Shown piece after piece: positions 55,560 through 61,392 of a stretch of DNA of 64,000 bases. Position 1 is the stretch's first letter; every line of letters begins with the position of its first letter. The stretch is from Eledone cirrhosa (taxonomy: Eukaryota): positions 19,716,001-19,780,000 of the forward strand of contig OZ024760.1 in assembly GCA_964016885.1 (NCBI GenBank). The letters are read 5' to 3'. A model generated the notes under the pieces. The model did not search any database. It worked only from the letters and a program-made list of their open reading frames with translations, and was not told the DNA's origin. The position numbers and the translations under genes were made by a program.

Positions 55560-55973
55560 ATGTAGGAGGTGAGTTTTATTGTAGTACAATAAAGCAATGC
55601 AGATATCGGATAAGAAGCACTCTACAGTTTGTAGGACTGGAGTATACATAATATAAGATCAAAAGATGGTTAAAGGAGTTCCATGTATTTTATTATGCGC
55701 ATTTCAAAAACAAACATCATCATGCAATAATATTTGTGTTTTCATCAGATAAAACAGGAGAACATGATATGAAGGCTAAAAAACACTTGTGGATAGTGCA
55801 GTTATATGTTGATTTAAAACTGCACTATTCACAAGTGTTTTTTAGCCTTCATATCATGTTCTCCTGTTTTATCTGATGAAAACACAAATATTATTGCATG
55901 ATGATGTTTGTTTTTGAAATGCGCATAATAAAATACATGGAACTCCTTTAACCATCTTTTGATCTTATATTAT
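55560..55973. mobile_element. Fold-back Penelope-like end, ~156-bp arms each with an intact hammerhead, plus ~88-nt tail
   Basis: 55648-55803 is the reverse complement of 55818-55973; TA-flanked. Confidence 0.85.
55866..55934 (+). ncRNA. Type I hammerhead ribozyme, intact (mirror copy at 55687-55755, minus strand)
   Basis: GTTTTAT-CTGATGA-long stem II-GAAA-TGCGCA-TA/ATAAAAT; palindromic stem III ATGCGCAT. Confidence 0.85.
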
Positions 55974-55983
55974 ATATATATAT

Positions 55984-56570
55984 ATATTGTTATACTTTGG
56001 GAGGGTCATGTTGCCAATAAGAAACACACGCACCAGTTGCTTTCACTTCAATTTATTATAATAAATTTATAAATTTAGGAATTTATAAATTTCTGGTTGG
56101 TTGGTTGGTTCCACAACCAGATAGTTGTTTATATATTGTCAAAATTCTTTCGTCACACATTCTGTGACCTCTTCAGTGACTGGGGATTCTTTTCTTTGTT
56201 TTTGTGCCTCTCCTTTGTTCTGTCCTATGCCATTTTGTTTCTGTGTGTGTGTTGTGTGCTCAGTCTGCGCATGCGCCACATCCGGGTATCTGTGTGTGTT
56301 TATATTCGTATATTTATTTGTTTATTTACATGTTACCGGTTGGTTGTTTGTTCTATGTGCGTGTGTGTTTTTGTGTTTTCATTTTGTCCTTAATTGTAAG
56401 TTGTGATGTTGCTGTTCCACTCATATTTTCTATTTATTATAATAAATTGAAGTGAAAGCAACTGGTGCGTGTGTTTCTTATTGGCAACATGACCCTCCCA
56501 AAGAATAACAATATCGGTTTCAACACACGATTTCAGATAAAGAATCTTGCTAAACAAATTCAGAAACGAA
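55984..56570. mobile_element. Fold-back element, 83-bp arms, 365-bp spacer, one-sided tail
   Basis: 55984-56066 is the reverse complement of 56432-56514; related end at ~51433-51505. Confidence 0.7.
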
Positions 56571-56613
56571 ATATATATATATATATATATAAGATGTTTA
56601 AAAGAGTTCCAAG

Positions 56614-56684
56614 TATTTTATTATGCGCATTTCAAAAACAAATATCATCATGGAATGATATCTGCGTTCTCATCAGATAAAATA
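56614..56684 (-). ncRNA. Type I hammerhead ribozyme, diverged copy of the 55866 family (element 56590-56745)
   Basis: CTGATGA-GAACGCAGATATCATT..GATGATATTTGTTTTT-GAAA-TGCGCA-TA. Confidence 0.8.
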
Positions 56685-56861
56685 GGGAGACATGATATCA
56701 AGCTTAAAAAACACTTGTGAGCAGTGAAGTATTAAATCAACATATGAAAAAATAAAATAAGATGGATGTATGAGATTGGGAAAGAAAAAAAATGTGGGGG
56801 GGCAGGTAAAGGTAATGAAGAGGAAGAAAGAAAATAAAGGATGGTAGGGGAGGAGTATAAG

Positions 56862-56893
<32 letters not shown>

Positions 56894-56943
56894 TACATAT
56901 ACATATATACATATATATACATATATATATTTAAATATATATA

Positions 56944-57281
56944 TCATCATCATCATCATTTTACGTCCGCTTTTCCCTGCTTACAAGGGTGGGACGGGAA
57001 CTGATTCTGGCTTGATTTCTACAGCTGGATGCCCTTCCTAACACCAACCTCATTTACAGTGAGTGCTGGGTGCTTTTTTGCCGTGGCACCTACACGACCA
57101 CTTTGCAGTGGAATGATAGGGACCCCAGTCCCTATCATCTCATTTCTACAGATGAGTAAACTGGAGCAATGTGAAATAAAGTGTCTTGCTCAAGGAAACA
57201 ACACATCACCCGGTCTGAGAATTGAACTCACAACCTTTCGATTGCAAGGCCAATGCTCTAACCATTAAGCCATGTGCCTCC

Positions 57282-57282
<1 letters not shown>
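56944..57282 (-). mobile_element. CORE-type SINE variant a, full length
   Basis: Reverse complement of the 20883-type element. Confidence 0.9.
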
Positions 57283-57370
<88 letters not shown>

Positions 57371-57729
57371 GTGTGTGTGTGTATAGATCATCATCATCAC
57401 CATTTAATGTCCATTTTTTCACGTCTGCATGGGTTAGACACAAGAAAGGTGTAACTCCCCAACCAGTTTAGTCACAGACCATGATGACCTGGCCTATTCA
57501 CAGCTTGGGAAGTAGACATATGATGATGATGATGATGATGATGGTGATGGTGATGACGATAGCGATGATGATGATGGTGGTGATGGCCATGATGATGACG
57601 ATGGTGGTGGTGGTGGTGGTGGTGGTGGTGGTGGTGATGATGATGAAGCCACATCTATGTAATGAAATTACAACTGGTTGTAATGTCATAGATAACTAAA
57701 TGGACATTGTACAATACAGATATGTGGTG

Positions 57730-58357
57730 GTACTTTATAGAGAGGTCATATGTCAGTCTCATAGAGTTATAAGACACCTCAGTATGGTCATACTTTATAT
57801 AGAGGTCATATGTCAGTGTCATAGACTTATAAGACACCTCAGTACAGTCATACTTTCTATAGAGGTCATATGTCAGTGTCATAGAGGTATAAGACACCTC
57901 AGTACAGTCATACTTTCTATAGAGGTCATATGTCAGTGTCATAGAGGTATAAGACACCTCAGTACAGTTATACTTTATAGAGAGGTCATATGACAGTGTC
58001 ATAGACTTATAAGACACCTCAGTACAGTCATACTTTCTATAGAGGTCATATGACAGTGTCATAGACTTATAAGACACCTCAGTACAGTCATACTTTCTAT
58101 AGAGGTCATATGTCAGTGTCATAGAGGTATAAGACACCTCAGTACAGTCATACTTTCTATAGAGGTCATATGTCAGTGTCATAGACTTATAAGACACCTC
58201 AGTACAGTTATACTTTCTATAGAGGTCATATGTCAGTGTCATAGACTTATAAGACACCTCAGTACAGTTATACTTTCTATAGAGGTCATATGTCAGTGTC
58301 ATAGACTTATAAGACACCTCAGTACAGTTATACTTTCTATAGAGGTCATATGTCAGT
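57730..58357. repeat. 60-bp minisatellite, ~10.5 units
   Basis: Units align with the 60-column lines (AGAGGTCATATGTCAGTGTCATAGA..AAGACACCTC). Confidence 0.95.
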
Positions 58358-58532
58358 TAGCTGAGATAGATAAAAGTTACTAAAGGTGTTAAAACAAGTT
58401 TCTCAAGAAATACAATGTGATTTTCTTTATTATTTATTGATAGATCAGATGTTTGTTTGTTTGTTTGTTGTGTTAAGTAAGAAATGAAGAGATCAATATT
58501 CCTGTTAATGGAAAGCATATATATGTGTGTCG

Positions 58533-58591
<59 letters not shown>

Positions 58592-58599
58592 TATGTATA

Positions 58600-58790
58600 T
58601 ACAAGAGATTATGTAAGTGTGTGTATGCAAGAGATTGTGTCAGTATATGTGTATATATATATGCAAGAGATTGTGTCAGTATATGTGTATATATATATGC
58701 AAGAGATTGTGTCAGTATATGTGTATATATATATGCAAGAGATTGTGTCAGTATATGTGTATATATATATGCAAGAGATTGTGTCAGTGT
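58600..58790. repeat. 36-bp tandem repeat, ~5 units
   Basis: GCAAGAGATTGTGTCAGTATATGTG repeats. Confidence 0.9.
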
Positions 58791-59165
58791 TAAGTGTGTA
58801 TATCAAAGACAGCAATAATTACAAGAAGAAAATAGTTTTTGTTAACCATCAATCAATTTTCAGTAGAAGTGAATTGTGTAAAATATATTTACGTTCACTA
58901 TATATATACATACATACATACATATATACATACATATATATACATATATATACATATATGTATACATATGCATACATATATACATATATACTTATATATA
59001 TATATACATATATATATATATACATATATATATATACATATATATATATACATATATATATATACATATATATATATACATACATATATATATACATACA
59101 TATATATACATATATATATATATATGTATACATACATATATATATATATACATACATATATATAC

Positions 59166-59204
<39 letters not shown>

Positions 59205-59235
59205 CGTACATACATATATATATACATACATGTGA

Positions 59236-59266
<31 letters not shown>

Positions 59267-59293
59267 CATACATACATATGTATATATACATAA

Positions 59294-59359
<66 letters not shown>

Positions 59360-59402
59360 CTTGAATATTGAATTTTACAACACAAGTGTATTAGAGGTCT
59401 CT

Positions 59403-59451
<49 letters not shown>

Positions 59452-60227
59452 GGATGTATGTATTTGCTTGTGATTACAGCCTTTAAAGATAATTTGATTT
59501 TTTAATTTACTGTTTTGTGAGGGAAGGTGGAGCAAAACCATTGACTCCCTTCAGGGTCTCTGAAACAGGGGGTGGGGGTGGAAGGAGGGACTACCTTTAT
59601 AACAGAGCCTTAGCCTGAATGCTTGCAACTGAATGGACTCCAGCCACCATTTCCAAGAAAATAATAACATTATGATTTCTACCACCATAAAATAGTAATA
59701 ATTATAGAAAATGGAAGCTATAAGATATCTATAAATATGGCAGCATATTACTCACCTTTTACAACACCAGACAAAGAAGGAACTTCACAATGTTGCCATT
59801 GCAAAGCAGAGAATGTTCACATTATCAAACAACAAGACACTCTATAGAAATTAAGTTACGTCTTATTATTATACAAGAACATCCCACTCGTGTGAGAGAA
59901 AAAAGGTCGAAATATGTATTAAAATGGCAAAACTAAGAATTACATGGATGCATTCATTATCAAACAGTAAACCATTTCTGATAATAGTTTAACAAACCTG
60001 TTTATTTACTGATTTCACTCTCTATGCTTTTAAGGTTGCAGTAGAGCAATTATTATATAACTGACTAGAAGAGACAATAGGAGATAAGAACTAAGTACTG
60101 TCCTTAGTGAATCAATAAGAAGCAGTACATGTCTGTCTGTATGTGTGTATGTATGTATGTATATATATATATATATATAATATGGGTATATATATATATA
60201 TATGGGTATATATATATATATATATAT

Positions 60228-60275
<48 letters not shown>

Positions 60276-60362
60276 GTTTATTTATATATATGTGTGTACA
60301 AGCATGTATGTGTATGAATGTAAATAAATGTATATATTTATGTATGTATGTATATATGCATG

Positions 60363-60445
<83 letters not shown>

Positions 60446-61277
60446 ATAAATGCTCTGAAATAGCGATATATATGCTTTTATCGAGAATCTAATTGTAATA
60501 CGTGACGTATTCTATTCTATAGCGATTAGGTCTTCGAAATGTTTATTATAAACATACAGAATATTTTCGAATATTCTATGTCTATATTCACATATATATA
60601 TATATATATATGCATGTATATATATATGCACACATACATAGATATATATATGTACATACACATACACATATATATATATGTGTGTGTGTGTGTGTTTATG
60701 TATGTATTGAAAATCTATAGTGATGAACAATGTTCAATAGTGGGTGCACAGCCTGAAGGTGATAAAAATTAGCTATTTTTCTATTTTTCTACAAGAATTC
60801 TCTTGTACAGGCTTGATGCCATTCAATGAGAGTGTGAAACTGTCAGAACAATTATGGAATTCTTAATGGGCTTTTCCGACAGAGATTCCAATTCCTATAG
60901 AATTGGAGACATTGTTTCGATACAAACTAGTGAACATGTACAGATTATAGGAATATACACTGACATGGGAAAGCTATTAACTCTATAACTGTCAGATCTA
61001 CAAGTATGTTAGAGAAACATACTCATCGGACCGAGGTAACAATATTTCCATTGGTCTTTCCAATTGATAATACTATCTACCGGTGACTACATCAGGTAGA
61101 AGGAGCAATGTGAAATAAACAGTCTTGCTCATAGCATCATAACGTATCGAACTCACAACCTCACGATTGTGAATCCAGTTCTCTAACCACTCAGCCACAT
61201 GCCTTCATTCATTAATATATATATATATATATATATGTATATGTATATGTTTTTTAGCCTTCATATCATGTCCTCCT

Positions 61278-61346
61278 GTTTTATCTGATGAAAACACAAA
61301 TATTATTGCATGATGATATTTGTTTTTGAAATGCGCATAATAAAAT
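61278..61346 (+). ncRNA. Type I hammerhead ribozyme, 55866 family (element 61249-61387)
   Basis: Same intact core and stems. Confidence 0.85.
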
Positions 61347-61392
61347 ACATGGAACTCCTTTAACCATCTTTTGTTCTTATATATTATGTATA

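What the first reader, a model, noticed from the sequence alone, without database searches (positions are those of the whole stretch)
55560..61387. Intact hammerhead family in four copies with pairing-compatible substitutions, two forming a 156-bp fold-back
Seen: the core CTGATGA...GAAA-TGCGCA-TA is invariant in all four copies. Stem II differences in the 56614 copy mostly keep pairing (A-U to G-U, U-G to C-G, U-G to U-A). The 55648-55973 palindrome puts one ribozyme on each strand, so transcription in either direction includes a sense copy and its antisense blocker. Inference: a recently active family with a selected RNA structure and predicted cleavage after AUA.
Basis: partly seen in the sequence, partly recalled or inferred. 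Interest (0 to 1): 0.75.

Follow-up and report, generated by a model that had tools for sequence, protein, structure and literature searches.

The report
Penelope jumping-gene hammerhead palindrome
These four hammerhead RNA motifs are end-stubs of a young, very abundant Penelope-type jumping gene, and the mirror-image pair is most likely an insertion by-product made from two separate DNA copies of the capped, uncut start of its RNA rather than an on/off switch.

Summary
There are four type I hammerhead motifs, and two form a 156-bp fold-back with one mismatch. The motif has 17,643 exact copies in this 3-Gb animal genome. It sits in the pseudo-LTR of an ~800-aa reverse-transcriptase/GIY-YIG Penelope-like element, likely of the Hydra clade.

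Hammerheads, inverted ends, a one-sided tail and (TA)n targets are all published for this group, so the palindrome is not a special regulatory design.

The copies add mechanism. 38 of 100 begin 64-70 nt upstream of the core. 49% of non-native junctions there carry a G, against 6% one base away, a cap signature. 22 of 25 inverted pairs join one tailed and one untailed arm, and either arm can be the longer. This favours two priming events on capped, uncleaved sense RNA over the published antisense self-priming idea.

Stem II covaries across sister families (47,143 further copies) and keeps an unpaired C at its fourth position. Cleavage is untested, and copy ends do not pile up at the AUA site. 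The scan has noted similar twin-armed Penelope palindromes in other genomes.

The parts
55560..55803 (-). Tailed arm of the inverted insertion: element sequence from 55 nt upstream of the core to +138 after the cleavage site
   Evidence: 97.6% identity to positions 771-521 of a full-length unit taken from L036
55560..55647 (-). About 85-nt tail (the element's 5' UTR downstream of the short end), present on this arm only
   Evidence: Same sequence lies between hammerhead and ORF start in L034; 3' ends fall at +51-54 or +133-140
55688..55754 (-). Hammerhead copy 1 (subfamily A); predicted cut between 55694 and 55693
55804..55978 (+). Untailed arm: starts at the -69 hot spot (inferred RNA 5' end) and ends at +53 in (TA)n
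   Evidence: many independent joints to 55804 in short-read contigs
55867..55933 (+). Hammerhead copy 2 (subfamily A): stem I, core, 16-pair stem II with a C.U mismatch at pair 4, self-complementary AUGCGCAU; predicted cut between 55927 and 55928
56591..56861 (-). Separate 5'-truncated copy of subfamily B, 172 nt upstream of the core retained
   Evidence: 91.6% to the subfamily B element in L044, 85% to subfamily A
56616..56682 (-). Hammerhead copy 3 (subfamily B)
61248..61392 (+). Separate single 5'-truncated copy (subfamily A) between (TA)n runs, with hammerhead copy 4 at 61279-61345
55984..56514 (.). Neighbouring insertion of an unrelated family: inverted repeats 55984-56066 and 56432-56514, with its own hammerhead core at 56176-56148 (-)
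   Evidence: 18,304 exact genome matches to its core

Best explanation
The four motifs are the pseudo-LTR hammerhead of a high-copy Penelope-like retrotransposon (likely Hydra clade), and the fold-back is most likely one insertion whose two arms were each reverse-transcribed from the capped, uncut 5' end of the element's RNA. Shown: full elements carry this motif on the ORF strand at both ends of an ~800-aa RT/GIY-YIG ORF; copies end at two fixed sites (about +53 and +136 after the cleavage site) in (TA)n; many start at -69 with an extra G; paired arms are one tailed and one untailed. Inferred: the element protein nicks both strands of (TA)n; each 3' end primes cDNA internally, one at +136 and one at +53; both run through the intact hammerhead towards the cap; the two cDNA ends are joined head to head, often through 2-6 nt of microhomology. 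The hammerhead itself is predicted to be slow and to need a partner: helix III can form only between two copies (AUGCGCAU), for instance the 5' and 3' pseudo-LTRs of a full transcript, and possibly with protein help, so it would trim or circularise unit-length RNA at another step. In the fold-back it would be silent.
For: Long ORFs next to the motif in L031, L034, L036, L039 of 20 loci fetched. The model of the ORF matches reverse transcriptases including telomerase. Motifs DKT, YRDD, CxCX5C, LIY..YFG, CxxC and CxH fit the Hydra description. In the first 100 of 17,643 copies, 47 end at +40-59 and 46 at +133-140; 38 start at -64 to -70, which is 38 of the 58 truncated within 160 nt (p 7e-37). 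G at -70 in 2,138 of 4,395 non-native junctions against 271 of 4,395 at -71; untemplated G is read as the cap in L1 and SVA (PMC4859970, passages). Tail parity: 22 of 25 classifiable divergent pairs are tailed plus untailed, p 8e-5. Either arm can hold sequence the other lacks (L116, L135, L160 against L127, L142), so one arm is not a copy of the other. Arms differ by 1.5% against 5.1% for random subfamily A pairs. In vitro, an anole PLE protein extends both target strands, starts at two internal sites and uses uncleaved RNA (PMC11167929, parts 1-2 of 4).
Against: No RNA data and no assay. The GIY-YIG domain rests on motifs; Pfam gave no hit and the fold matches listed were polymerases only. 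The +53 end lies in a TA-rich patch, so it could be a microhomology or endonuclease end and not a priming site. Arm identity could be raised by gene conversion. 3 of 27 pairs were tailed on both arms and 2 of 64 rows untailed on both. Tandem 5' pseudo-LTRs in L036 and L039 extend at least 640 and about 1,000 nt upstream, which a template starting at -69 cannot supply; a circle or read-through RNA is needed too. Helix III dimers of sister families are weak (-2 to -3 kcal/mol against -10.5).
Confidence: 0.8

Rival explanations
1. The palindrome forms by self-priming (fold-back) on one template, as proposed for head-to-head PLE repeats with an antisense template.
For: Published hypothesis (PMC3846280, passages). 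Arms are nearly identical, and some junctions are centred on the palindrome CATATG.
Against: The extra G lies on the sense strand at a fixed site. Either arm can be the longer, and both can reach -69 with a G each (L119). Single copies also start at -64 to -70.
Confidence: 0.1
2. The palindrome is a selected unit (a mini-element or ribozyme switch) that spreads as one piece, the antisense arm controlling cleavage.
For: 14 short palindromes among the first 100 copies; the hairpin would block the fold on both strands.
Against: Junctions differ among loci, either arm may carry the tail, and subfamilies A and B both make them. Inverted 5'-truncated copies are standard for PLEs (PMC8557442, passages).
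Confidence: 0.04
3. The motif is kept mainly as a protein-binding or packaging fold and no longer cleaves in vivo.
For: Copy ends do not pile up at the cut site: 1 of 20 true junctions is exactly there, 14 lie 9-11 nt upstream. Metazoan PLE hammerheads cleave poorly in vitro (PMC4209133). Core mutants do not affect insertion in vitro (PMC11167929).
Against: The only core change shared by many copies is at N7, the free position (7 of the first 100, by eye). Helix III stays self-complementary across families whose RTs are 47-55% identical.
Confidence: 0.2
4. The fold-back is an assembly or long-read artefact.
For: Palindromes are a known long-read artefact (own knowledge). No contig laid spans the whole stretch.
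Against: The arms are asymmetric (tail on one side, one mismatch). Short-read contigs show many different joints to 55804.
Confidence: 0.01

Closest known systems
Hydra clade of C-terminal EN+ Penelope-like elements (Craig et al. 2021, PMC8557442; section 11, passages, supplement part 2 and search hits read)
   Same: Single RT plus C-terminal GIY-YIG ORF, DKT, CxCX5C linker, CxxC and CxH, no CCHH, (TA)n targets, hammerhead in the pseudo-LTR. By eye the N-terminal and RT motifs follow Hydra-1_Obim.
   Different: RWK reads RWT or RWI. The unit is about 3.3-3.9 kb, not under 3 kb. The hammerhead is unlike all those listed there: stem II of 16 pairs with a C.Y mismatch, against 3-7 pairs; three motif strings of this family and its sisters had 0 hits in the supplement. 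The tail is about 85 nt, not 30-40.
PLE minimal and dimeric type I hammerheads (Cervera and de la Pena 2014, PMC4209133; parts 1-2 of 4 read)
   Same: Core CUGANGA/GAAA/UH, long helix II, palindromic helix III predicted to act as a dimer, thousands of solo copies, pairs on opposite strands 100-700 bp apart.
   Different: No extra base between 9 and 10.1 (pair 10.1-11.1 is A-U, G-U or G-C), a conserved mismatch at pair 4, and a larger copy number than the 2,000-9,000 cited there.
Inverted pseudo-LTR insertions of Adineta vaga Penelope (Arkhipova et al. 2013, PMC3846280; passages) and Poseidon of Anolis in vitro (Frangieh et al. 2024, PMC11167929; parts 1-2 of 4)
   Same: Head-to-head inverted pseudo-LTR, tail at one end, two internal initiation sites, uncleaved RNA as template.
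   Different: The 2013 paper proposes antisense self-priming; the copies here favour two primings on capped sense RNA. No target-site duplication can be read in (TA)n.
Twin priming of LINE-1 (cited in PMC4859970, passages; details recalled)
   Same: Both target ends prime cDNA and give an inversion joined by microhomology.
   Different: In L1 the two cDNAs cover adjacent parts of the RNA (recalled); here they overlap almost fully and both start at fixed internal sites.

Membership tests
EN+ Penelope-like element | Single ORF with reverse transcriptase | tested here: met
   775-821-aa open frames in L031, L036, L039; YRDD; fold matches to retron, DRT and telomerase RTs, best E 2.5e-5
EN+ Penelope-like element | C-terminal GIY-YIG endonuclease | tested here: met
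   LIY-X13-YFG, then R, E and N in the usual order, conserved in P0003-P0007; motif-level only, no Pfam hit
EN+ Penelope-like element | Partial tandem forming pseudo-LTRs, with the hammerhead in them | tested here: met
   L034, L036, L039
EN+ Penelope-like element | Inverted 5'-truncated copy and tail at one end | tested here: met
   27 divergent pairs among 100 copies; 22 of 25 tailed on one side
EN+ Penelope-like element | Target-site duplication | tested here: inconclusive
   Flanks are (TA)n on both sides
Hydra clade | DKT in place of DKG; GxKF/Y absent | tested here: met
Hydra clade | CxCX5C linker; CxxC and CxH around E and N; no CX2-5CxxC | tested here: met
   CNCRIKNKC, CNLC, CLH
Hydra clade | RWK motif | tested here: inconclusive
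   RW kept, K replaced by T or I; homologues have RWK or RWR
Hydra clade | Insertion into (TA)n | tested here: met
   Nearly all 3' ends of the 100 copies run into (TA)n
Hydra clade | Placement in the clade on an RT tree with reference elements | not tested
   Reference proteins were seen only as text in a supplement; no tree was built
Type I hammerhead ribozyme | Core CUGANGA, GAAA, UH with stems I and II | tested here: met
   AUA is a natural triplet (PMC1636495, abstract)
Type I hammerhead ribozyme | Covariation in helices | tested here: met
   Across 69 distinct stem II sequences pairs 2, 3, 6, 8 beat all 2,000 shuffles; 0.93 paired in register, 0.52-0.60 when slid; sequences are related, so these are not probabilities
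Type I hammerhead ribozyme | Self-cleavage | not testable with these tools
   No assay possible; copy ends show no peak at the site
Non-LTR retrozyme | Non-coding head-to-tail tandem array of 150-400-nt units | tested here: not met
   Copies are dispersed, inverted or attached to an ORF

The most novel reading that the evidence does not exclude
Penelope-like elements integrate by overlapping twin priming: one particle copies the same capped RNA start twice from two fixed internal sites, and that alone makes the inverted end and the one-sided tail; and these families use a hammerhead variant whose unpaired C in stem II is a new tertiary or protein contact that holds cleavage back until after copying.
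Probability: 0.35. Interest if true: 0.65.

Novelty: new member of a known kind. Interest (0 to 1): 0.42.

Why it matters
The element type and its layout are known. How PLEs build their inverted ends is named as open in PMC8557442, and one published idea is antisense self-priming. Thousands of young copies here give a fixed RNA start with a cap signature, two fixed priming sites and strict tail parity. That yields exact substrates for an in vitro test. The conserved mismatch in a long stem II is a small, testable addition to hammerhead structure.

Tried and rejected
Rfam: 0 matches at gathering score in the window; the weak matches were microsatellite and hairpin noise. A DNA search of the own genome returned nothing, probably because common words are skipped; patterns were used. 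Pfam found no family for the ORF or four homologues. Run search: no RNA holder listed, which says nothing about expression. A peak of 5' ends at the cleavage site was sought and not found. Monomer folding gives stems I and II but no helix III; with flanks, other folds are favoured by 3-6 kcal/mol. Within subfamilies A and B the frequent stem changes are all one-sided; two-sided changes appear only between families. Two exon-like stretches near 59750 and 60810 were translated without a clear result, so whether the site is in a host intron is open. Paper searches for a prior two-priming account of PLE inversions and for these hammerheads in cephalopods found none in the library; subscription papers and Repbase are not covered, and I made no search aimed at the C.Y mismatch beyond (listing only). 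A search of earlier scan notes by this sequence found nothing.
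Full report
Observation. Each reads UUUUAU, CUGAUGA, a 36-nt stem II, GAAA, UGCGCA, UA, AUAAAA. The fold-back arms are 55648-55803 and 55818-55973, 156 bp with one mismatch. The 56676 copy has five stem changes, all pairing-compatible, and one loop change. Rfam has no model for the motif.

What carries it. The own genome (3.0 Gb, an animal by its repeats; I did not test which) has 17,643 exact matches to the motif and 0 to the reversed control. I fetched 20 loci chosen for paired motifs. Four hold open frames of 738-821 aa on the motif's strand. 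The protein folds like a reverse transcriptase (mean pLDDT 62; best matches retron, DRT and telomerase RTs) and ends in a GIY-YIG-type segment. L034, L036 and L039 show the motif on both sides of the ORF, as in pseudo-LTRs. DKT, CxCX5C, CxxC, CxH and (TA)n targets match the Hydra clade as described in PMC8557442; RWK is only partly kept and no tree was built, so Hydra is likely, not shown. It is not the published Hydra-1_Obim, whose hammerhead differs.

What the window holds. One two-armed insertion (55560-55978), one subfamily B stub (56591-56861) and one subfamily A stub (61248-61392). The left arm carries an 85-nt tail that is the element's 5' UTR. Between them lies an unrelated hammerhead insertion.

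Ends of copies. I mapped the first 100 of the 17,643 matches, all on contig C1. 3' ends: 47 at +40-59, 46 at +133-140, 3 read through, 4 other. 5' ends: 38 at -64 to -70 from C3, 12 shorter, 8 at 71-160, 42 longer or not resolved. Among 27 divergent neighbours within 8 kb, 22 pair a tailed with an untailed arm, 3 are tailed on both (two of these are probably separate insertions), none untailed on both, 2 unclassified (p 8e-5 for 22 of 25). Arms differ by 61 of 4,164 bases (1.5%) against 5.1% for random subfamily A pairs. Short-read contigs from run X1 show many different joints to 55804, so the hot spot is not an assembly artefact.

Cap signature. The native base at -70 is C. Among 4,395 copies with another base there, 2,138 have G; one base further up only 271 have G. 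[quoted passage not shown] Some of these G's are shared with the partner arm by microhomology. I infer a capped sense RNA starting at -69.

How the palindrome forms. In 64 rows of copies starting at the hot spot (some rows are two views of one insertion), 43 pair tailed with untailed, 2 untailed with untailed, 1 tailed with tailed, 9 have no partner and 9 were unclassified. The untailed arm can reach -69 while the tailed arm stops before the hammerhead (L116, L135, L160), and the reverse also occurs (L127, L142). So neither arm is copied from the other. That argues against the self-priming proposed in PMC3846280 and for two primings. It fits the anole element, which extends both target strands, starts at two internal sites and uses uncleaved RNA. 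Whether one RNA molecule or two from the same source are used is open. The +53 end could also be a microhomology end.

The hammerhead. Selected by flanks alone, 18,125 copies match; 17,148 keep the 10 constrained core bases (with one anchor base fewer). By eye, 11 of the first 100 differ in the core, and the only change shared by many (7) is at N7. In stem II all 7 frequent variants keep pairing, against 38% expected for random changes; 2 variants seen in 3 copies each break it, and 16 of 18 rare ones break it. Sister families add 47,143 motifs, with RT pieces 47-55% identical in 3 of 30 loci. Across 70 distinct stem II and helix III combinations, pairs 1-3 and 5-8 are formed in 83-99% with two-sided changes, and pair 4 in 0 of 70, with C on the 5' side in 69; shuffles and slid registers support the helix. 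These patterns required the core, so cross-family core conservation is built in. Helix III cannot form in the monomer; the AUGCGCAU duplex is worth -10.5 kcal/mol, the sister versions only -2 to -3.

Does it cut? Unknown. 866 copies lack G12 at its place. Of the first 30, the script called 24 junctions; I dropped 4 as point mutants or deletions (L099, L101, L102, L103). Of the 20 left, 14 lie 9-11 nt upstream of the site and 1 exactly at it. So cleaved RNA was not a main template. Long tandem pseudo-LTRs need a circular or read-through template, which is where cleavage may act.

Prior notes. My reading was written down before I opened the scan's notes. Notes on other genomes describe the same twin-armed palindromes, and notes on this genome describe two-armed retrozymes; they are unchecked and are not independent support. 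One note reports junctions at the cleavage site in another genome, which I do not see here. They gave the lead to PMC3846280. I read part 1 of 5 of the 2026 retrozyme preprint; its supplements are closed.

Verdict. A real, young hammerhead family in a new member of a known element group. The architecture is published. The cap G, tail parity and independent arm lengths make the open question of PLE inversion testable. Interest 0.42.

Noticed in passing
window 55984-56514: A second, unrelated hammerhead family (core 56176-56148, minus strand) inside its own inverted-repeat insertion; 18,304 exact genome matches to the core.
   Followed up: partly
window 48826-49236 and 44289: Two sister-family hammerheads with TATGTA in helix III; the first lies in a 121-bp inverted repeat. 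The sister families have 47,143 matches, and three loci hold RT pieces 47-55% identical to this family's.
   Followed up: partly
L036 and L039: Tandem 5' pseudo-LTRs extend at least 640 and about 1,000 nt upstream of the hammerhead, far past the -69 start; this suggests a circular or read-through template.
   Followed up: partly
L031:2615: The forward arm begins at the tail end (unit position 771) and runs one full unit length.
   Followed up: no
L081-L110: A minor pile-up of 5' ends 9-11 nt upstream of the cleavage site, at the foot of stem II; possibly an RT stall.
   Followed up: partly
L036 3' UTR: A 111-nt tandem repeat in variable copy number in the 3' UTR of full elements; the ORF also has an Asn-rich insert of about 60 aa before the linker that homologues lack.
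   Followed up: no
window 57731-58350 and 63130-63989: Minisatellites of 60 nt and 112 nt; the 112-nt unit is 80% like a dispersed repeat at 57006-57110.
   Followed up: no
window 56897-57320: A 400-bp dispersed repeat with several 94-98% copies elsewhere in the window and a weak tRNA-like match at 57215-57272 (below gathering score), probably a SINE.
   Followed up: no
window 59752-59850 and 60810-61036: Exon-like stretches of complex sequence on opposite strands; no clear reading frame found.
   Followed up: partly
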